Of a stretch of 38,049 bases of DNA, positions 24,504 to 38,049 are shown in pieces; within the stretch, counting starts at the first letter, position 1, and each line of letters begins with the position of its first letter. This stretch comes from a virus. Lineage: Duplodnaviria > Heunggongvirae > Uroviricota > Caudoviricetes. The stretch spans positions 1 to 38,049 of IMG/VR virus record IMGVR_UViG_2802429217_000005; one strand, written 5' to 3'. The translations under genes were made by a program, and so were the position numbers. The notes beneath the pieces are model-generated. The model did not search any database and had not been told where the DNA came from. It saw only the letters and a list, made by a program, of their open reading frames with translations.

Positions 24504-24659
24504 TTACTCCTCAGGTTCGTAAGCTGTGAAGACAGCGACCTCCGTTTGGCTGGTTCGGATTCGTACCTCACAGAGATCTTTCCTCGTTACCAGTGCCGTC
24601 ACAATGACGGTTAAACAGATGACGATCAGGGCGATTAACATCGCCTTTTGCTGCTCCAT
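24504..24659 (-). CDS. hok: Hok-family type I toxin (HokD/RelF-like)
   Basis: 51-codon ORF missed by the >=60-aa track: MEQQKAMLIALIVICLTVIVTALVTRKDLCEVRIRTSQTEVAVFTAYEPEE, near-identical to E. coli HokD as recalled; AGGAG 9 nt upstream. Confidence 0.85.
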   Translation of the reverse strand: MEQQKAMLIALIVICLTVIVTALVTRKDLCEVRIRTSQTEVAVFTAYEPEE

Positions 24660-24841
24660 AGCCTGCTTCTCCTAGCCTTTCGGCACGTAAGAGGCTAACC
24701 TACATTTGTGAGACATAGATTGGGCCTCAGATTAATGTTAAGCGTCTTGCAGGACGCTTAATGTTAACTGTGCTTTTCTTTATCTGCCTTTTGGTGTTCA
24801 TGCCTGAGACAGATAGCCTCAATCACCCGCAGCGATTTTAC

Positions 24842-31117: not shown

Positions 31118-31209
31118 TTCACCCTCCTAAAACTAAGTATTTTTAGATTAAAGGATAATTTTTTTTAGGTCAATGCAATCTAAAATAATTTATATTCAAT
31201 TCACGGGAG
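31118..31209. promoter_or_regulatory. divergent promoter/operator region between the cro-like and repressor genes
   Basis: 92-bp AT-rich spacer with dyads CTAAAACTAAGTATTTTTAG (31127-31146) and TTTTAG-N11-CTAAAA (31163-31185); candidate leftward -35 TTGACC / -10 TAATCT and rightward -10 TATATT. Confidence 0.5.
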
Positions 31210-31860
31210 ATGATGATGGAAAGCCTTGGCATTAGGCTTAAGAGACTCAGAAAAGACAAGGGACTGACCCAAGTCGAACTGGGCAAGCTTTCTGGCGTAA
31301 CAGGGGTAACTATAGGGTACTGGGAGAAAGACCTAAACGAACCCGGTAGCAAAGCTCTTAGTAAATTAGCCCAAGCACTAGGAACTACTGAGTCCTATCT
31401 CCTATATGGAGTATCGTCTACTGAACCTACCCTTGTGCAGAACAATTCAGGCACCCAAATCCCCTATCTTTCATGGGGGGAAGCAATTTCTTTCCTAATT
31501 TTAGAAGGAGAGAAAACTATGGGAAATGCCGACAGAATCACCACATTCTTTGACGTCAAGGAGGGGGATTTTGCCGTTTCAATGCCTGATGACACTATGC
31601 ACAACCCATCAGGGTCGCCAAGCATTCCGGTTGGTGCCACAGTGATCATGAGGCCTAGAGAAAAATATAAAAATGGTAGTATCGTCGCTGTAATAGTCCC
31701 AGATCCGCTTACAAACGAACCATCTATGACTATAAAAAAATTAGTCATCGACGGAAAACTCGTGTATTTAAGCCCCCTCAATCCTCGCTATCAATCGTCC
31801 TTACTGACACCTGAATGTAAAATTGTTGCTGTAGCAAAAGGTGTGCAGTTCAGCCTATAG
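31210..31860 (+). CDS. CI-like prophage repressor (HTH-XRE N-terminus, S24 LexA-type peptidase C-terminus)
   Basis: 216-aa ORF; N-terminal LKRLRKDKGLTQVELGKLSGVTGVTIGYWE HTH; C-terminal FAVSMPDDTM ... IVAVIV ... MTIKKLV consistent with an S24 Ser/Lys autoprotease; GGGAGA Shine-Dalgarno. Confidence 0.85.
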   Translation: MMMESLGIRLKRLRKDKGLTQVELGKLSGVTGVTIGYWEKDLNEPGSKALSKLAQALGTTESYLLYGVSSTEPTLVQNNSGTQIPYLSWGEAISFLILEGEKTMGNADRITTFFDVKEGDFAVSMPDDTMHNPSGSPSIPVGATVIMRPREKYKNGSIVAVIVPDPLTNEPSMTIKKLVIDGKLVYLSPLNPRYQSSLLTPECKIVAVAKGVQFSL

Positions 31861-31883
31861 CTTCCACTTTGTTTTTCAATCAG

Positions 31884-31908
31884 AGGTCGGCTTTGTCGAC
31901 CTTTTTTT
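31884..31908 (+). terminator. candidate intrinsic terminator after the repressor gene
   Basis: AGGTCG-GCTTTGT-CGACCT hairpin followed by TTTTTTT. Confidence 0.6.
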
Positions 31909-31930
31909 AAATATATCTAGATCACACTTG

Positions 31931-31962
31931 ACTATAAAACTAAATAGATTTAGTTTTATAGT
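31931..31962. repeat. 32-bp palindrome with 15-bp perfect arms (candidate operator)
   Basis: ACTATAAAACTAAAT-AG-ATTTAGTTTTATAGT; arms perfectly complementary apart from the central dinucleotide; overlaps a TTGACT hexamer. Confidence 0.45.
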
Positions 31963-32056
31963 ATACCACCCCACCCCGCCCCACAGAACGCAGGGCAATA
32001 CTTCGAGTTACCAGGCAGTGGTCTGGGGTTAAGTAGCCAGCCCGAGGCGTAAGAAC

Positions 32057-32290
32057 ATGACGGCAGGGTTCAACTTTAACTATGCAGCAGGTTTTTGTTC
32101 CGCCACCCCGGCGTTAAGGGGAAATGAGGTCAGCATGGATACTATCGATCTTGGCAACAGCGAATCTCTGGTATGTGGCGTGTTCCCCAACCAGGACGGT
32201 ACGTTCACCGCGATGACATATACCAAAAGCAAAACGTTTAAAACCGAATCTGGCGCGCGTCGCTGGCTGGAAAGAAATTCAGGTGAGTGA
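32057..32290 (+). CDS. YdfA-like (DUF1391) small protein
   Basis: The C-terminal 51 aa from the ATG at 32135 (MDTIDLGNSESLVCGVFPNQDGTFTAMTYTKSKTFKTESGARRWLERNSGE) match E. coli YdfA as recalled; the longer 77-codon frame is also open. Confidence 0.6.
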   Translation: MTAGFNFNYAAGFCSATPALRGNEVSMDTIDLGNSESLVCGVFPNQDGTFTAMTYTKSKTFKTESGARRWLERNSGE

Positions 32291-32291
32291 T

Positions 32292-32420
32292 ATGGATTTC
32301 GACGCAATCATGGAAAAGGCTTACGAAGAATACTTCGAAGGCCTTGCCGAAGGCGAAGAAGCTCTCAGCTTCAGCGAATTTAAACAGGCGCTTTCCAGTT
32401 CGGCAAAAGCTAACAACTGA
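32292..32420 (+). CDS. YdfB-like small acidic protein
   Basis: 42-codon ORF missed by the track: MDFDAIMEKAYEEYFEGLAEGEEALSFSEFKQALSSSAKANN; starts 2 nt after the ydfA-like stop. Confidence 0.55.
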   Translation: MDFDAIMEKAYEEYFEGLAEGEEALSFSEFKQALSSSAKANN

Positions 32421-32512
32421 GAAGTTTATGATGGAATTGAGAGTTTGTTTCAAACTCTCAATAAACCAGAGGCAGGTAAGGAGCGTTAAATTATTGCTTG
32501 AGAGCAATAAGA

Positions 32513-33046
32513 TCACTCAATCTCACCGCTATAGGCATTCCATCTGAGCATGAGTGCACGCCAGAAAATATCGTTTATGTGCAAAACACAGTATGGATTT
32601 TCGTCGGGAAGGAGTTGCCCTTCCATGGGGAGCAAAATATTAGCAGATACCAGTTTTTTTATATCAGAATTATTGCGTACAGCATGGATCACAGGATAGT
32701 TCCTCGATAATGCCGTAATAAGAATTTTTTTCTGACCCGCAGTCAAGGAATCGATAACTGCATTGATATGACTGATTATTTTTTGTTCTCTTGTATTGTT
32801 CCGGTGACTTCGCCAGATCTTACGAAGAAATAAAGCTAAACGTTGGAGATTTATAGCCAGCACAAAAGAAAAGGCAAAAACGAATACCGGGTAAATATAA
32901 GGAATGCTGATTTTGTCTTGAACATACTCCGGTACAGAATCAGGCATAAAGAGCAATATCAAAACAAAGATAATAAGCATATACATAAGGCGCTCTAAGG
33001 GTTCGTTACTGAATAACTTGCTCAACAAGCCGAATACATCAGGCAT
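32513..33046 (-). CDS. membrane protein of unknown function, encoded antisense within the ydfAB-dicF operon
   Basis: 177-aa ORF with two N-terminal hydrophobic segments and a soluble C-terminal domain; visibly AT-rich; opposite strand to the flanking early-left genes. Confidence 0.5.
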   Translation of the reverse strand: MPDVFGLLSKLFSNEPLERLMYMLIIFVLILLFMPDSVPEYVQDKISIPYIYPVFVFAFSFVLAINLQRLALFLRKIWRSHRNNTREQKIISHINAVIDSLTAGQKKILITALSRNYPVIHAVRNNSDIKKLVSANILLPMEGQLLPDENPYCVLHINDIFWRALMLRWNAYSGEIE

Positions 33047-33357
33047 ATTAATAACTCTCTACTGTAAGGGTATTAAAATGTTATCACAGACTCTCGCTGT
33101 AGGGGTATAGCCGAGACCACCGAGCCTGAAGTGGTAAAAAGACAGGCACACAACACGAAAGCGCACGGCGAGGCTGTTAGTTCATAAATGGTCTGTCGTT
33201 AAATTTACGTCGACCGTGCGCTTCCGGTTGTGGCACTCCGCGAAATGGCGCGGCGGTAAGTATGGCGGGGTTATTCCTTCCCCCGTTGAGGACACCGGGT
33301 TGTCAGGTTGACCATACGCTTAAGTGACAACCCCGCTGCAACGCCCTCTGTTATCAT

Positions 33358-33415
33358 TTTTCTGGTGACGTTTGGCGGTATCAGTTTTACTCCGTGACTG
33401 CTCTGCCGCCCTTTT
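33358..33415 (+). ncRNA. dicF: DicF small RNA
   Basis: TTTCTGGTGACGTTTGGCGGTATCAGTTTTACTCCGTGACTGCTCTGCCGCCC followed by TTTTT matches the recalled 53-nt DicF sequence and its terminator. Confidence 0.8.
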
Positions 33416-33590
33416 TAAAGTGAATTTTGTGATGTGGTGAATGCGGCTGAGCGCACGCGGAACAGTTAAAACCAAAAACAGTGAAATGGGTGGATTCTCT
33501 GTATCCGGCGTTAATTGTTAACTGGTTAACGTCACCTGGAGGCACCAGGCACCGCATCAACAAAGTTCATTTGTAAAAATGGAGATAATT

Positions 33591-33812
33591 ATGATTGCTC
33601 ATCACTTCGGAACTGATGAGATTCCTCGTCAGTGCGTGACTCCCGGTGATTATGTTATTCATAAAGGAAGAACATATATTGCTTCGGTAAACAACATTAA
33701 AAAACAACGGCTCTATATTCGTGATTTTTCCACACAACACTGTATTAAGGAAACCATGATTAAAGTCTTCCTTGGTCGTGATGGTTTACCTGTAAAAGCA
33801 GAGTCATGGTGA
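33591..33812 (+). CDS. hypothetical protein in the position DicB occupies in Qin
   Basis: 73 aa from the ATG at 33591 (GGAG 6 nt upstream); does not resemble DicB as I recall it; function unknown. Confidence 0.4.
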
Positions 33813-33935
33813 GCAGTAATAAAATAACTGCCACAATACGACATTCAGCTTAATGAATACATCAGATTTGATTCTTATATGCCAGCAATGGCAGGGATTT
33901 GTTCACCCTTAAATCTGTAATGAGGTTAAAACAAA

Positions 33936-36410
33936 ATGAGTAAAGTCTTTATTTGCGCCGCCATTCCTGACGAACAGGCAATTACGGAAGAAGGTGCAGT
34001 TGCTGTAGCCACTGCCATCGAAGCTGGTGACGAACGCCGCGCCCGTGCCAAATTTACCTGGCAATTCCTGGAGCAATATCCGGCTGCTCAGGACTGTGCT
34101 TATAAATTTCTTGTCTGCGAGGATAAACCCGGCATGGCCCGCCCTGCCCTTGGTTCCTGGGATACCGAATATATGCAGGAAAACCGCTGGGATGAGGGAT
34201 CGTCTTCCTTTGTCCCGGTCGAACCAGAGCCGAATACAGAAATTGTTAACTTTAATCAGTTATCCGACGACAAACAGGCCGCTGTTCTCGTTAAGTTTGG
34301 CGCACATGAAAACGTCACCGTGGATATGGTCATCAACGCAAGCGGGCTTCTTGGCGATGACGACATGATGACCTTTGACGGACACCTCGCAGAGGCAATT
34401 ATCCGGACTAAAGAAATTAACGCCATGTATCCGGAACGTCAGATTGAATACATCAACGATGCCAGACGTGATTTAAAACCAACCGCCAAATGGCCCGACG
34501 TTCAGGCATATTTTCTCGACCGTAAAAAACGCCAGGAAAAGGAGCGCAAAGAAGGTGGTGCATATACTTCTGTTGTTGATCTCGCCCGCGCCAGCGTCAA
34601 CCGGCAGAACACTGAAAACTCAGTAGCAAAAATCAACCCTGTCACTACTGCCATTCGTCGCGAATACAAGCAGACATGGAAAACACTGGATGATGAACTG
34701 GCCTACGCTCTGTGGCCTGGTGACATTGATGCCGGAAACATTGACGGCAGCATCCATCGCTGGGCAAAAAATGAAGTTATCGACAACGACCGCGAAGACT
34801 GGAAGCGTATCTCGGCATCAATGCGCAAACAACCTGATGCCCTTCGCTACGACCGCCAGACTATTTTTGGCCTTGTCCGTGAACGTCCGATCGACATTCA
34901 CAAAGACCCTGTGGCACTGAACAAATACATTACTGAATACCTGACTACAAAGGGCGTGTTTGAAGATGAAGGAAGAAATCAGAGCGCAACTGATACTCTC
35001 TCGTCGCCAGTACCAGAAACTGATGCAGTGGAAACGGCAATTCCGGACAACGAAAAAACCGAATGCAAAGTGGAAGTCGAACCATCTGTAGAGCGTGAGG
35101 GGCCGTTCTACTTCCTCTTCACCGACAAGGATGGCGAAAAATACGGTCGCGCAAACAAACTTTCTGGTCTGGATAAGGCACTGGCTGCCGGGGCTACTGA
35201 AATCACGAAAGAAGAATATTTCGCCCGCAAAAACGGTACATACTCAGGTTCACAACAAAATACTGGTGCATCTGATACGACCGCACAACCAGGGCCGGTA
35301 AAAGTTACCGCTGACGAAGTAAACAAAATTATGCAGGCAGCCAATATCAGCCAGCCTGACGCCGATGAACTGCTTGCAGTATCACGCGGTGAATTTGTTG
35401 CAGGGATTAGCGATCCGAATGATCCGAAATGGGTAAAGGGGATTGAAACCCGCGATTCTGTGAACCAGAACCAGCAAGAAACGGAACAGAACGATCAGAA
35501 AGCGGAACAAAACAGCCCAAATACGCAACAAAACGAGCCAGAAACGAAACAACCTGAACCAGTAGTGCAACAGGAACCGAAAAAGATCTGCACCGCCTGC
35601 GGTCAGAGCGGTGGCGGCAACTGCCATGATTGTGGTGCGCTGATGGGCGACGCAACATACCAGGAAACATTCGATGACAAGAACCAGGTTGAAGTTCAGG
35701 AAGACGATTCGGAGAAAATGGAAGGCGCTGAACATCCACACAAGGGGAATGCTGGCAGCGCTCAGGACCACGCCAGCGATAGTGAAACTGGCGAGAGGGC
35801 AGATCCCTTAATTACGGTGAACGGTCATCACGTTATCACATCCACCAGCAGGACGTGTGACCATCTAATGATCGACCTTGAAACCATGGGAAAAAATCCT
35901 GATGCCCCGATCATCTCAATAGGTGCAATATTTTTCGATCCGCAAACCGGAGATATGGGACCGGAATTTAGTAAGACTATCGATCTGGAAACTGCTGGCG
36001 GAGTCATTGATCGGGACACCATTAAATGGTGGCTTAAGCAATCACGCGAAGCGCAATCTGCCATTATGACCGATGAAATCCCGTTAGATGATGCACTGTT
36101 ACAATTGCGGGAATTTATCGACGAAAACTCCGGTGAATTTTTTGTTCAGGTTTGGGGAAATGGAGCCAACTTCGACAACACGATTTTGCGCCGTTCATAC
36201 GAACGGCAGGGGATCCCCTGCCCGTGGCGTTACTACAACGATCGCGATGTACGCACAATCGTTGAGCTGGGGAAAGCCATAGACTTCGATGCCAGAACGG
36301 CTATTCCATTCGAAGGTGAGCGCCATAATGCACTTGATGACGCCCGTTACCAGGCAAAATACGTTTCAGTTATCTGGCAAAAACTTATCCCGAGTCAGGC
36401 TGATTCTTAA
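33936..36410 (+). CDS. RecE-like exonuclease: large N-terminal region plus C-terminal DEDDh (DnaQ-like) 3'-5' exonuclease domain
   Basis: 824-aa ORF; central block LLAVSRGEFVAGISDPNDPKWVKGIETRD resembles RecE; C-terminus has LMIDLETMG, WGNGANFDNTIL and HNALDDARY (DEDDh-like); Cys cluster CTACGQSGGGNCHDCG. Confidence 0.7.
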   Translation: MSKVFICAAIPDEQAITEEGAVAVATAIEAGDERRARAKFTWQFLEQYPAAQDCAYKFLVCEDKPGMARPALGSWDTEYMQENRWDEGSSSFVPVEPEPNTEIVNFNQLSDDKQAAVLVKFGAHENVTVDMVINASGLLGDDDMMTFDGHLAEAIIRTKEINAMYPERQIEYINDARRDLKPTAKWPDVQAYFLDRKKRQEKERKEGGAYTSVVDLARASVNRQNTENSVAKINPVTTAIRREYKQTWKTLDDELAYALWPGDIDAGNIDGSIHRWAKNEVIDNDREDWKRISASMRKQPDALRYDRQTIFGLVRERPIDIHKDPVALNKYITEYLTTKGVFEDEGRNQSATDTLSSPVPETDAVETAIPDNEKTECKVEVEPSVEREGPFYFLFTDKDGEKYGRANKLSGLDKALAAGATEITKEEYFARKNGTYSGSQQNTGASDTTAQPGPVKVTADEVNKIMQAANISQPDADELLAVSRGEFVAGISDPNDPKWVKGIETRDSVNQNQQETEQNDQKAEQNSPNTQQNEPETKQPEPVVQQEPKKICTACGQSGGGNCHDCGALMGDATYQETFDDKNQVEVQEDDSEKMEGAEHPHKGNAGSAQDHASDSETGERADPLITVNGHHVITSTSRTCDHLMIDLETMGKNPDAPIISIGAIFFDPQTGDMGPEFSKTIDLETAGGVIDRDTIKWWLKQSREAQSAIMTDEIPLDDALLQLREFIDENSGEFFVQVWGNGANFDNTILRRSYERQGIPCPWRYYNDRDVRTIVELGKAIDFDARTAIPFEGERHNALDDARYQAKYVSVIWQKLIPSQADS

Positions 36411-36482: not shown

Positions 36483-36734
36483 ATGAGCGAAGTAATCATG
36501 ATTGTCTCTCCCGGCAAATGGGTATCCGAAGAACAGTTAATTGCGCTGAAAGGAATAAAAAAAGGTACGTTAAAAAAGGCCCGGGAAAAATCGTTTATGG
36601 AAGGAAGGGAATATAAGCATGTCGCTCATGACGGTATGCCATGGGATAACAGTCCATGCTTTTACAACCTGGAAGAAATTGATCGCTGGATTGAGCGCCA
36701 GGCATCAGCGAGACCAAGACGTCATCTTACTTGA
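36483..36734 (+). CDS. xis: excisionase-like protein (DUF1233-type)
   Basis: 83-aa ORF immediately upstream of the integrase gene; pattern recalled as the excisionase-like family; start uncertain. Confidence 0.5.
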   Translation: MSEVIMIVSPGKWVSEEQLIALKGIKKGTLKKAREKSFMEGREYKHVAHDGMPWDNSPCFYNLEEIDRWIERQASARPRRHLT

Positions 36735-36753: not shown

Positions 36754-38049
36754 ATGAGAGAAGTTGAAATGAAATATCCGACAGGCGTGGAAAACCATGG
36801 AGGGAAATTACGTATCTGGTTTGTTTATAAAGGCGTAAGAGTCAGGGAAAATCTGGGGGTTCCTGACACAGCAAAAAACAGGCGCGTTGCAGGTGAACTA
36901 CGCTCCTCTGTTTGTTACGCAATAAAAACTGGTGTTTTCGACTATGCAAAACAGTTTCCCTCCTCACGCAATCTGGAAAAATTTGGTGAGGCCCGACAAG
37001 ATTTAACCATAAAAGAACTGGCTGAAAAATTTCTGGCACTGAAAGAAACTGAAGTCGCCAAAGCATCACTCAACACATACCGTGCCGTCATCAAAAATAT
37101 CCTGAGCATAATCGGTGAAAAAAATCTTGCCTCATCGATTAATAAAGAAAAATTACTGGAGGTTCGTAAAGAGCTACTGACTGGATACCAGATCCCCAAA
37201 AGTAACTATATTGTTACACAACCAGGGAGATCGGCTGTAACTGTAAATAATTACATGACAAATCTTAACGCCGTGTTCCAGTTTGGTGTTGATAACGGTT
37301 ACCTGGCAGATAATCCGTTTAAGGGGATCTCGCCATTAAAGGAATCAAGAACCATTCCTGATCCTCTTTCACGGGAGGAATTTATCCGTCTTATCGACGC
37401 CTGCAGAAATCAGCAGGCCAAAAATTTATGGTGTGTTTCTGTTTATACAGGCATTCGCCCTGGTGAACTGTGTGCGCTTGGGTGGGAGGACATAGATCTG
37501 AAAAATGGAACAATGATGATCAGGAGAAATTTAGCAAAAGATCGTTTTACGGTACCGAAAACACAGGCTGGTACCAATCGGGTAATTCACCTTATCAAGC
37601 CTGCAATCGACGCTCTCAGGAGTCAGATGACACTAACGAGGCTGAGCAAAGAACATATTATTGACGTTCACCTCAGAGAGTTCGGCAGAACAGAAAAACA
37701 AAAATGCACCTTTGTTTTTCAACCTGAAGTGTCAGCGAGAGTAAAAAATTATGGTGACCATTTTACCGTTGACTCAATAAGGCAGATGTGGGACGCAGCG
37801 ATAAAGCGCGCTGGCCTCCGCCACCGCAAATCATATCAGTCGAGACATACTTATGCCTGCTGGTCGTTGACAGCCGGTGCCAACCCGGCATTCATAGCAA
37901 ACCAGATGGGACATGCAGATGCGCAAATGGTGTTTCAGGTATACGGGAAATGGATGTCTGAAAACAATAATGCACAGGTAGCCCTGTTAAATACACAGCT
38001 AAGCGAGTTTGCCCCAACCATGCCCCAAAACGAGGTGGTGAAAAATTAA
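36754..38049 (+). CDS. int: tyrosine recombinase / phage integrase
   Basis: 431-aa ORF (possible true start at the ATG at 36769); C-terminal catalytic region with R...HxxR...Y-type motifs (HLIKPAIDALR, SRHTYACW, YGKWM); stop at the window end. Confidence 0.9.
   Translation: MREVEMKYPTGVENHGGKLRIWFVYKGVRVRENLGVPDTAKNRRVAGELRSSVCYAIKTGVFDYAKQFPSSRNLEKFGEARQDLTIKELAEKFLALKETEVAKASLNTYRAVIKNILSIIGEKNLASSINKEKLLEVRKELLTGYQIPKSNYIVTQPGRSAVTVNNYMTNLNAVFQFGVDNGYLADNPFKGISPLKESRTIPDPLSREEFIRLIDACRNQQAKNLWCVSVYTGIRPGELCALGWEDIDLKNGTMMIRRNLAKDRFTVPKTQAGTNRVIHLIKPAIDALRSQMTLTRLSKEHIIDVHLREFGRTEKQKCTFVFQPEVSARVKNYGDHFTVDSIRQMWDAAIKRAGLRHRKSYQSRHTYACWSLTAGANPAFIANQMGHADAQMVFQVYGKWMSENNNAQVALLNTQLSEFAPTMPQNEVVKN

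What the first reader, a model, noticed from the sequence alone, without database searches (positions are those of the whole stretch)
33358..33415. DicF sRNA present in an otherwise non-Qin-like prophage
The DicF sequence and its terminator are intact, preceded by ~300 bp of GC-rich untranslated sequence. DicF represses ftsZ translation, so this prophage carries a cell-division inhibitor together with a lambda-type structural module.
Basis: established knowledge. Interest (0 to 1): 0.4.

Follow-up and report, generated by a model that had tools for sequence, protein, structure and literature searches.

The report
Ordinary DicF sRNA in lambdoid prophage
This is a genuine copy of the well-known DicF small RNA, identical to the E. 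coli K-12 copy that blocks cell division, and it sits in its usual place in the early operon of a lambda-like prophage, so the find is correct but ordinary.

Summary
Window 33359-33411, plus a U-run to 33416, is dicF. It scores 76.7 bits against Rfam RF00039 (threshold 48) and is 53/53 identical to the K-12 gene. The terminator hairpin is intact.

The ~310 bp upstream has no ORF longer than 37 aa. It is the conserved DicF precursor leader, 97% identical to Qin over the 137 nt that belong to the 190-nt precursor. It includes the long hairpin where the RNase III cut is expected.

"Otherwise non-Qin-like" is overstated:
- The promoter position, ydfA, ydfB, the leader, dicF and the 160-nt downstream UTR are all Qin-homologous.
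- Only ydfC and dicB-ydfD are replaced, by an antisense sieB and a Rac-type kil.
- Viable phages Tritos and mEp460 carry the full dicBF operon, and their early regions are about 90% identical to this one.

The cassette is in 4719 of 5426 complete E. coli genomes, up to 10 copies each. DicF in non-Qin lambdoid prophages is already published. The DicF-kil pairing is a minority mosaic, found in 189 genomes against 3927 with DicF-dicB.

Side lead: the Rac sRNA KilS occupies the same scaffold and looks like a DicF paralogue with different seeds.

Low interest; already known.

The parts
31210..31860 (+). CI-like prophage repressor (HTH_3 plus Peptidase_S24 autocleavage domain)
   Evidence: Pfam HTH_3 2e-12 and Peptidase_S24 1e-10; annotated as LexA family protein in the near-identical E. 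coli MS 119-7 prophage
31882..31904 (+). terminator-like hairpin just after the repressor gene
   Evidence: 10-bp stem followed by a T-run
31928..31956 (+). putative early-left promoter, TTGACT-17 nt-TAGTTT; positional homologue of K-12 dicBp
   Evidence: The TTGAC element aligns with the K-12 Qin dicBp region and the Rac promoter region; sequence read. The consensus scan did not call it because the -10 matches only 3 of 6. Its function is inferred.
31931..31962 (.). perfect 15+15 palindrome (probable operator) overlapping the promoter
   Evidence: Inverted repeat I2, 100% complementary; a related 22-nt copy lies at 31128-31149 in the cro-cI intergenic region
32135..32290 (+). ydfA/ydaF-like gene (DUF1391, 51 aa)
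   Evidence: Pfam DUF1391 1.7e-27; aligns with K-12 ydfA
32283..32420 (+). ydfB-like small ORF (45 aa)
   Evidence: Nearly identical to K-12 ydfB in the alignment; ORF listed
32513..33046 (-). sieB (superinfection exclusion), antisense to the operon; takes the place of Qin ydfC
   Evidence: Pfam SieB 6e-15; same sieB-kil arrangement as in K-12 Rac
33144..33237 (+). long leader hairpin, the probable RNase III substrate that yields the 190-nt DicF precursor
   Evidence: -40 kcal/mol, z -3.7. The 17-bp basal stem is kept in 31 distinct sequences, and 3 pairs show compensatory changes. A 190-nt species ending at the terminator would start at about 33222-33227, inside the 3' arm. RNase III dependence of that species in K-12: bioRxiv 10.1101/2023.04.14.536235.
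33238..33358 (+). distal leader between the hairpin and the mature 5' end; the AU-rich RNase E site region lies at its 3' end
   Evidence: Part of the 33222-33358 block that is 133/137 identical to K-12 Qin. One difference (33357 T versus A) lies 2 nt 5' of the mature end.
33359..33411 (+). mature DicF sRNA (53 nt)
   Evidence: Rfam RF00039 76.7 bits; 53/53 identical to K-12 dicF
33374..33416 (+). DicF intrinsic terminator (hairpin 33374-33410, U-run 33412-33416)
   Evidence: MFE fold; matches the Rfam consensus structure
33417..33578 (+). conserved 5' UTR of the downstream toxin gene (STnc100-like)
   Evidence: 33412-33573 is 155/162 identical to Qin. The UTR is also shared with Rac. Sub-threshold Rfam STnc100 hit, 37.8 bits against a threshold of 47, E 4e-6.
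33579..33812 (+). kil (Rac KilR-type FtsZ inhibitor; the 73-aa form starts at 33591); takes the place of Qin dicB-ydfD
   Evidence: 81% identical to K-12 KilR over 73 aa; annotated kil in RefSeq genomes
33936..36410 (+). 824-aa exonuclease of the early-left operon
   Evidence: Pfam Rv2179c-like domain 3e-67 at residues 643-814; annotated exonuclease
36483..36734 (+). excisionase
   Evidence: Pfam DUF1233 (putative excisionase) 1.6e-31
36754..38049 (+). tyrosine integrase; reading frame still open (no stop) at the last base of the window
   Evidence: Pfam Arm-DNA-bind_2 and Phage_integrase. In E. coli MS 119-7 the integrase gene lies next to rspB.

Best explanation
Window 33359-33411 is a functional dicF gene inside the immediate-early 'left' operon of a lambdoid prophage. 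The virion genes are phage 21/lambda-type and the early region is mEp460/Tritos-type.

Shown here:
- The RNA is identical to the tested K-12 allele.
- Its precursor leader, terminator and downstream UTR are conserved.
- The operon starts at the same position as K-12 dicBp, and a perfect palindrome overlaps that position.
- The palindrome has a related copy in the cro-cI intergenic region.

Inferred:
- In the lysogen, the S24-domain CI repressor shuts the promoter.
- After SOS-induced CI cleavage, or stochastic derepression, transcription runs through the ydfA-like and ydfB-like genes and antisense sieB into the structured leader.
- RNase III cuts the long hairpin (33144-33237) to give a species of about 190 nt.
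- RNase E trims it at the AU-rich site just 5' of 33359.
- The intrinsic terminator sets the 3' end.
- With Hfq, the 3' part of DicF pairs with the ftsZ ribosome-binding site and blocks translation.
- The 5' end pairs with xylR and pykA.
- Transcripts that read through the terminator go on to express kil (a protein inhibitor of FtsZ), the exonuclease, xis and int.

On induction the phage would therefore stop host division by an RNA route and a protein route.
For: Identity of the RNA:
- Rfam DicF 76.7 bits against a threshold of 48.
- 53/53 identical to K-12 dicF, and 133/137 identical over the 190-nt precursor part of the leader.
- The fold matches the family structure.

Processing context:
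- The leader hairpin folds at -40 kcal/mol, z -3.7.
- Its basal stem is conserved with some compensatory changes.
- The predicted 5' end of a 190-nt species falls in its 3' arm.
- RNase III and RNase E processing from the polycistronic dicBp transcript, with no internal promoter, was shown in K-12 (bioRxiv 10.1101/2023.04.14.536235).

Targets:
- The 3' region pairs with the ftsZ RBS, shown with compensatory mutants, and the 5' end is predicted to pair with xylR and pykA, supported for xylR by the DicF3 mutant that abolishes its regulation (PMC5069750).
- The ftsZ leader is at least 99% identical in 5389 of 5426 E. coli genomes.

Regulation:
- The promoter is homologous in position to dicBp.
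- The operator palindrome has a related copy at cro-cI.
- The repressor has an S24 domain.

Downstream gene and selection:
- Kil is 81% identical to KilR.
- The cassette is maintained in 4719 of 5426 genomes and in viable phages, which argues for selection.
Against: - There are no expression data for this prophage.
- The putative -10 (TAGTTT) matches only 3 of 6 and was not picked up by the consensus scan. K-12 dicBp has an equally poor -10 by my reading.
- The transcript must cross 534 bp antisense to sieB, which Qin does not have.
- The A-to-T change at 33357, 2 nt 5' of the mature end, could shift the RNase E cut by a nucleotide.
- The computed DicF-ftsZ duplex energy (-38.5 kcal/mol) is not better than many shuffles: mean -34.2, sd 4.3, with 79 of 500 as good. 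The pairing claim therefore rests on identity to the tested allele, not on my calculation.
- Covariation in the leader stem is modest, and it mostly separates two clades.
Confidence: 0.85

Rival explanations
1. The main job of the element in this phage is transcriptional. Its terminator acts as a gate, like lambda tL sites, that limits expression of toxic kil and of exo/xis/int until read-through is allowed. The sRNA is then a by-product or a secondary function.
For: The terminator sits between the promoter and kil/exo/xis/int. In K-12, no transcripts extending beyond dicF into dicB were detected. Variants with quite different sRNA bodies keep the same terminator scaffold and position.
Against: The 53 nt are invariant or nearly so across most copies, including single-stranded seed positions that a terminator does not need. 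DicF has direct targets proven with compensatory mutants. The two roles are not mutually exclusive.
Confidence: 0.15
2. The copy is a silent hitch-hiker. It was carried in by recombination with a Qin/mEp460-type phage and is not expressed or not useful in this prophage.
For: The locus is a clear mosaic of Qin-type and Rac-type segments. The promoter is weak by consensus. An antisense sieB gene has been inserted upstream.
Against: The RNA has no substitutions and the leader and UTR are 96-97% identical to Qin. The promoter and operator architecture is conserved. The same DicF-kil junction recurs in 189 complete genomes. The prophage retains regulatory, lysis and morphogenesis modules within the window.
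Confidence: 0.08
3. DicF is expressed, but ftsZ repression is not what it is selected for here. The relevant targets are others: sugar uptake and metabolism genes (xylR, pykA, manX), or virulence genes in pathogens (pchA). Kil would then supply the division block.
For: In K-12, DicF toxicity is not explained by ftsZ repression alone. EHEC DicF activates pchA (PMC7873438). A dedicated FtsZ inhibitor protein lies directly downstream.
Against: The ftsZ-pairing 3' region is fully conserved here and in most copies. The ftsZ target is conserved across E. coli. This reading refines the main explanation and does not replace it.
Confidence: 0.2
4. The stretch encodes a small protein on one strand rather than an RNA.
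For: Short ORFs overlap it: 33308-33397 on the + strand (29 aa), and 33320-33475 (51 aa) and 33387-33563 (58 aa) on the - strand, all with TTG starts.
Against: Nothing but the open frames themselves supports these ORFs. The region matches a structured-RNA model at high score. It is annotated as ncRNA in K-12 and as misc_RNA in phage Tritos.
Confidence: 0.02

Closest known systems
dicF of the E. coli K-12 Qin cryptic prophage (b1574; Rfam RF00039)
   Same: The 53-nt RNA is identical. The 190-nt precursor part of the leader is 97% identical and the downstream UTR 96% identical. Promoter position is the same, and ydfA and ydfB lie upstream.
   Different: ydfC is replaced by an antisense sieB. dicB-ydfD are replaced by kil. 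The repressor is a CI with an S24 cleavage domain; K-12 annotates its counterpart only as the regulator DicA, and I did not scan DicA for domains. The host element carries a full virion, lysis and early gene set within the window, not a 20-kb remnant.
dicBF operons of viable lambdoid phages Tritos and mEp460, and of O157:H7 prophages CP-933O/M/P
   Same: The cassette is the same (94-96% identical). It lies in the early-left operon between the repressor and the large exonuclease gene of a lambdoid phage. The early region is about 90% identical overall (PMC5069750).
   Different: Those phages keep ydfC-DicF-dicB-ydfD. This one has sieB(antisense)-DicF-kil, an arrangement found in 189 complete E. 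coli genomes against 3927 with DicF-dicB.
KilS sRNA in the kilR 5' UTR of the K-12 Rac prophage (b4833)
   Same: Same position between sieB and kil. Same upstream hairpin, with a compensatory A:U to G:C change. Same terminator stem (GGCGG...CCGCC) and U-run, and the same downstream UTR and kil gene. The 3' half of KilS scores 39.1 bits against the Rfam DicF model, E 4.5e-5.
   Different: The loop and 5' single-stranded sequences differ, so the seeds and probably the targets differ. KilS lacks the ~120-nt distal leader. It scores below the Rfam DicF gathering threshold. It was reported as possibly having its own promoter (PMC8175672).
Bacteriophage lambda kil in the pL operon
   Same: An FtsZ-directed division block is encoded in the repressor-controlled early-left operon of a lambdoid phage (PMC3961180, title and abstract).
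   Different: Lambda has no DicF. Here an antisense sRNA adds a translational block on ftsZ upstream of a Rac-type kil. I did not test homology between this Kil and lambda Kil.

Membership tests
DicF RNA (Rfam RF00039) | Scores at or above the family's curated gathering threshold over the full model | tested here: met
   76.7 bits against a threshold of 48, model positions 1-52 of 52, E 2e-15
DicF RNA (Rfam RF00039) | Architecture: single-stranded 5' end of about 15 nt, a terminator hairpin with an internal loop, then a U-run | tested here: met
   The MFE fold reproduces it, -15.9 kcal/mol, z -2.3; it agrees with the consensus structure line
DicF RNA (Rfam RF00039) | Pairing regions for ftsZ (3' part) and for xylR/pykA (5' end) unchanged from the experimentally tested allele | tested here: met
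   53/53 identical to K-12 dicF. Pairing regions are defined in PMC5069750. The ftsZ leader is at least 99% conserved in 5389 of 5426 genomes. My own duplex energy was not discriminating.
DicF RNA (Rfam RF00039) | [quoted passage not shown] | not testable with these tools
   Only the context could be checked. The leader is 97% identical to K-12, and the hairpin at 33144-33237 is conserved and stable.
DicF RNA (Rfam RF00039) | Binds Hfq and represses ftsZ translation in vivo | not testable with these tools
   Inferred from sequence identity to the K-12 RNA
Qin-type dicBF operon (ydfA-ydfB-ydfC-dicF-dicB-ydfD under DicA) | ydfA and ydfB upstream, with the promoter at the dicBp position | tested here: met
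   Alignment with K-12; DUF1391 hit
Qin-type dicBF operon (ydfA-ydfB-ydfC-dicF-dicB-ydfD under DicA) | ydfC immediately upstream of the dicF leader | tested here: not met
   sieB lies there on the opposite strand (32513-33046). Homology to Qin begins only at about 33150.
Qin-type dicBF operon (ydfA-ydfB-ydfC-dicF-dicB-ydfD under DicA) | dicB and ydfD downstream of dicF | tested here: not met
   Homology to Qin ends at the dicB start codon, and a Rac-type kil follows
Rac-type sieB-KilS-kilR region | sieB and kilR divergent, with a shared intergenic scaffold (hairpin, terminator, UTR) | tested here: met
   Three-way alignment; Kil 81% identical to KilR
Rac-type sieB-KilS-kilR region | KilS-type sRNA body between the hairpin and the terminator | tested here: not met
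   The body here is DicF plus the ~120-nt distal leader. Rac has about 60 nt of different sequence there.
Lambda/phage-21-type virion module | Nucleotide identity to the terminase-to-tape-measure genes of lambda-like phages | tested here: met
   Window 1 to about 13,700 is 98% identical to phage 21, Lambda_4C10 and ev017

The most novel reading that the evidence does not exclude
DicF and the Rac sRNA KilS are alleles of one recombining prophage sRNA locus.

All variants share three things: an upstream processing hairpin, a terminator stem (GGCGG...CCGCC, with one GGUGG...CCACC compensatory variant) and a downstream UTR.

Two elements are exchanged independently. The first is the sRNA seeds, that is, the 5' single-stranded segment and the hairpin loop. 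At least six sRNA bodies were seen, including DicF-5'/other-loop and KilS-5'/DicF-loop hybrids. The second is the downstream gene: dicB, kil, or a ~125-aa third gene.

This window would be a DicF x kil recombinant. If the seeds set different host targets, lambdoid phages are naturally shuffling sRNA target specificity on a fixed scaffold. I found no paper in the searchable library that links KilS to DicF. The library is incomplete.
Probability: 0.45. Interest if true: 0.45.

Novelty: already known. Interest (0 to 1): 0.15.

Why it matters
For the finding as stated, it matters little. It adds one more copy of a textbook sRNA in a context already described, namely multiple dicF copies in lambdoid prophages of many E. 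coli strains.

Three points are useful:
- The dicBF-type operon is the normal early-left operon of a living lambdoid lineage, not a Qin peculiarity. A 2016 search of about 2,000 phage genomes found no DicF, whereas 59 phage records now match the 424-bp cassette, 21 over at least 80% of its length.
- RefSeq annotation usually leaves these dicF copies unannotated; most hits list no feature. Automated pipelines therefore under-report a toxic regulator that can be present in up to 10 copies per genome.
- The DicF/KilS scaffold relationship offers a natural system for studying how sRNA seeds are swapped.

Tried and rejected
- RNA duplex energy of DicF against the ftsZ leader as an independent test of targeting. 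The result was -38.5 kcal/mol, but 79 of 500 mononucleotide shuffles did as well. I dropped it as evidence.
- The consensus promoter scan found no + strand promoter between cI and dicF. I placed the promoter by homology to K-12 dicBp instead, so it remains an inference.
- A scan of one genome per species with the 18-nt anchor just 3' of the terminator gave 65 hits. Only 18 were real cassettes. They came from Escherichia or Shigella, or from MAGs of unrelated taxa that are probably contaminated. The other 47 were chance matches, so there is no evidence for spread beyond Escherichia/Shigella at this stringency.
- Small ORFs overlapping dicF on both strands were rejected, because nothing but the open frames supports them and the RNA match is strong.
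- PGAP's 'DicB, incomplete' pseudogene at about 33481-33564 lies in the conserved UTR upstream of the real dicB/kil start. It is a 31-aa frame, not a dicB remnant. In some phages it is fused in frame to dicB.
- A low-stringency Rfam scan of 31800-34000 gave nothing else credible apart from the STnc100-like UTR.
- No tRNA genes were found in the window.

Full report
**1. Is it there?**

Yes. An Rfam scan of the whole window gives two families above their curated thresholds. One is DicF (RF00039) at 33360-33411 on the + strand, with 76.7 bits against a threshold of 48 and the full model matched. Aligned to the K-12 Qin region, window 33359-33411 is identical to annotated dicF at all 53 positions.

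Folded alone, the RNA has a 15-nt single-stranded 5' end, a hairpin at 33374-33410 and a U-run at 33412-33416. This matches the family structure.

It is not met.

**2. The upstream '300 bp'.**

The 312 bp between the sieB start codon (33046) and dicF contain no ORF longer than 37 aa on either strand. GC is 54-57% in the proximal 222 bp, against 38-39% in the flanking genes and 49% for the window. The stretch is therefore GC-rich only in a relative sense.

From about 33150 onward it is the conserved DicF precursor leader. It is 190/203 identical to K-12 over 33156-33358, and 133/137 identical over the part that belongs to the 190-nt precursor.

It starts with a long imperfect hairpin at 33144-33237, at -40 kcal/mol and z -3.7. 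Across 31 distinct sequences from viral contigs, the 17-bp basal stem is kept. Three pairs show compensatory changes, mostly between two clades.

In K-12, DicF comes only from the polycistronic dicBp transcript. RNase III makes the 5' end of a 190-nt species and RNase E makes the 5' end of the 53-nt species (bioRxiv 10.1101/2023.04.14.536235). An earlier paper describes RNase III differently, as acting at a 3' end (PMC5069750). A 190-nt RNA ending at this terminator would begin at about 33222-33227, inside the 3' arm of the hairpin.

The one difference near the mature 5' end is T for A at 33357, 2 nt upstream. Whether it shifts the RNase E cut is unknown.

**3. Surroundings.**

On the + strand the order is as follows:
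- a CI-like repressor with HTH and S24 domains (31210-31860);
- a ydfA-like DUF1391 gene (32135-32290);
- a ydfB-like ORF (32283-32420);
- sieB on the opposite strand (32513-33046);
- the leader, dicF and a 160-nt conserved UTR;
- kil (33579-33812, 81% identical to K-12 KilR);
- an 824-aa exonuclease, xis and int.

Cro, ydaT-like and replication genes run the other way from 31117.

A TTGACT-17-TAGTTT element at 31928-31956 aligns with the promoter region of K-12 dicBp and with that of Rac. A perfect 15+15 palindrome (31931-31962) overlaps it. A related copy lies in the cro-cI intergenic region.

I infer that the prophage repressor controls the operon. Because that repressor has an S24 domain, the operon should be SOS-inducible. 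This step is inference. The consensus scan did not call the promoter.

**4. Is the prophage 'otherwise non-Qin-like'?**

Only in part.

Around dicF, however, about 1.6 kb is homologous to Qin. Homology ends exactly at the dicB start codon.

A three-way alignment shows a mosaic:
- 33040-33137 is Rac-type.
- Everything from the kil start codon (33579) onward is also Rac-type.
- 33137-33573 is Qin-type.

The early half of the window is about 90% identical to the viable phages Tritos, mEp460 and HannyBb. Tritos and mEp460 carry cI-ydfA-ydfB-ydfC-DicF-dicB-ydfD-exonuclease. The dicBF operon is therefore the normal early-left operon of a living lambdoid lineage, and Qin is a decayed member of it.

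**5. How common is it?**

- The 424-bp cassette (33150-33573) matches in 4719 of 5426 complete E. coli genomes. There are 11,317 places in all, with a median of 2 and a maximum of 10 per genome.
- It also matches 59 phage records.
- The DicF-dicB junction is present at 80% coverage or more in 3927 genomes. The DicF-kil junction of this window is present in 189. These are megablast counts, so they are lower bounds.
- Among 114 classifiable viral-contig loci, 70 are DicF+dicB, 17 are KilS-type+kil and 3 are DicF+kil.

Multiple dicF copies in non-Qin lambdoid prophages (CP-933O/M/P) and four copies in EHEC are already published (PMC5069750; PMC7873438).

**6. Mechanism.**

The RNA is identical to the tested allele, so I carry over the published mechanism. 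The 3' region pairs with the ftsZ ribosome-binding site and blocks translation, and the 5' end pairs with xylR and pykA (PMC5069750). The ftsZ leader is at least 99% identical in 5389 of 5426 genomes.

My own duplex calculation covered the RBS and start codon at -38.5 kcal/mol. It did not beat shuffled controls, so it adds nothing.

Read-through of the DicF terminator would express kil. This prophage therefore pairs an RNA inhibitor and a protein inhibitor of FtsZ in one repressor-controlled operon.

Rival readings (terminator gate, silent passenger, other primary targets, small ORF) are listed with their evidence in the rival explanations. None displaces the main reading.

**7. Side observation.**

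K-12 Rac annotates an sRNA, KilS, between sieB and kilR. It was verified by Northern blot and RIL-seq (PMC8175672).

KilS lies on the same scaffold as DicF. It begins at the start of the 3' arm of the shared hairpin. It ends at the shared terminator U-run. Its terminal hairpin, GGCGGCAUCAG...CUGAUGUCCGCC, is a DicF-like stem with a different loop. The Rfam DicF model scores it at 39.1 bits, below the threshold of 48, with E 4.5e-5.

Viral contigs show further bodies and hybrids on the same scaffold. The paper that named KilS does not mention DicF. This is the most novel reading left open. It was only partly followed up.

**8. Verdict.**

It is overstated about the non-Qin context and about how unusual the combination is. 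This is already-known biology and of low interest.

Noticed in passing
window 33140-33416; K-12 Rac locus L003 6906-7003 (-): The Rac sRNA KilS sits on the same scaffold as DicF: shared upstream hairpin, shared terminator stem and U-run, shared downstream UTR. It scores 39.1 bits against the Rfam DicF model (threshold 48). Viral contigs show at least six sRNA bodies, including seed hybrids, combined with three different downstream genes.
   Followed up: partly
window 33413-33598 (+): The conserved 160-nt UTR between the DicF terminator and kil gives a sub-threshold, full-length match to Rfam STnc100 (37.8 bits against 47, E 4e-6). The same weak match recurs at the equivalent place in Rac and in five viral loci. 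Rac-SA53 and several Stx phages carry this UTR without DicF.
   Followed up: partly
window 24657-24826 (-), with a 51-aa ORF at 24504-24659 (-): A hok/sok-type toxin-antitoxin locus lies in the prophage. Rfam sok scores 81.8 bits against a threshold of 59. The adjacent 51-aa ORF, whose ATG is the last three bases of the sok match, is a candidate hok gene.
   Followed up: no
window 31931-31962 and 31128-31149: A perfect 15+15 palindrome overlaps the putative early-left promoter. A related 22-nt sequence lies in the cro-cI intergenic region. These are probable operators of the S24-domain CI repressor.
   Followed up: partly
window 33357: The only difference from K-12 near the mature DicF 5' end is T instead of A, 2 nt upstream in the RNase E site region. 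Among the distinct viral-contig sequences printed, the DicF-type copies almost all read A here (ATCAATTTTCTGG), with single ATCCATTTT and ATCAATATT variants and none reading ATCATTTTT as the window does.
   Followed up: no
window 33198-33207 (GTTAAATTT); Rac L003 7018-7010: The motif GTTAAATTT in the distal part of the leader hairpin is conserved across nearly all variants. In Rac it reads TGTTAAATT, an extended -10-like element that ends 7 nt before the annotated KilS 5' end. This fits the report that KilS may have its own promoter. DicF-type copies read CGTTAAATT.
   Followed up: no
window 33481-33576 (+): RefSeq annotates a 'DicB, incomplete' pseudogene here in the near-identical genome. 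It is a 31-aa frame inside the conserved UTR. In some phages, such as mEp460, it is fused in frame to dicB to give a longer annotated DicB.
   Followed up: partly
window 33936-36410 (+): The 824-aa 'exonuclease' of the early-left operon has a C-terminal Rv2179c-like 3'-5' exoribonuclease/DEDD domain (3e-67). No other Pfam domain was detected across its first ~640 residues.
   Followed up: no
viral loci L007, L035, L055, L065, L068 and others: A third kind of gene follows the sRNA cassette in some phages. It is about 125 aa and begins MLNVAIENQNGWNYS. In L007 it is accompanied by isrK and C4 antisense RNA matches just downstream of DicF.
   Followed up: no
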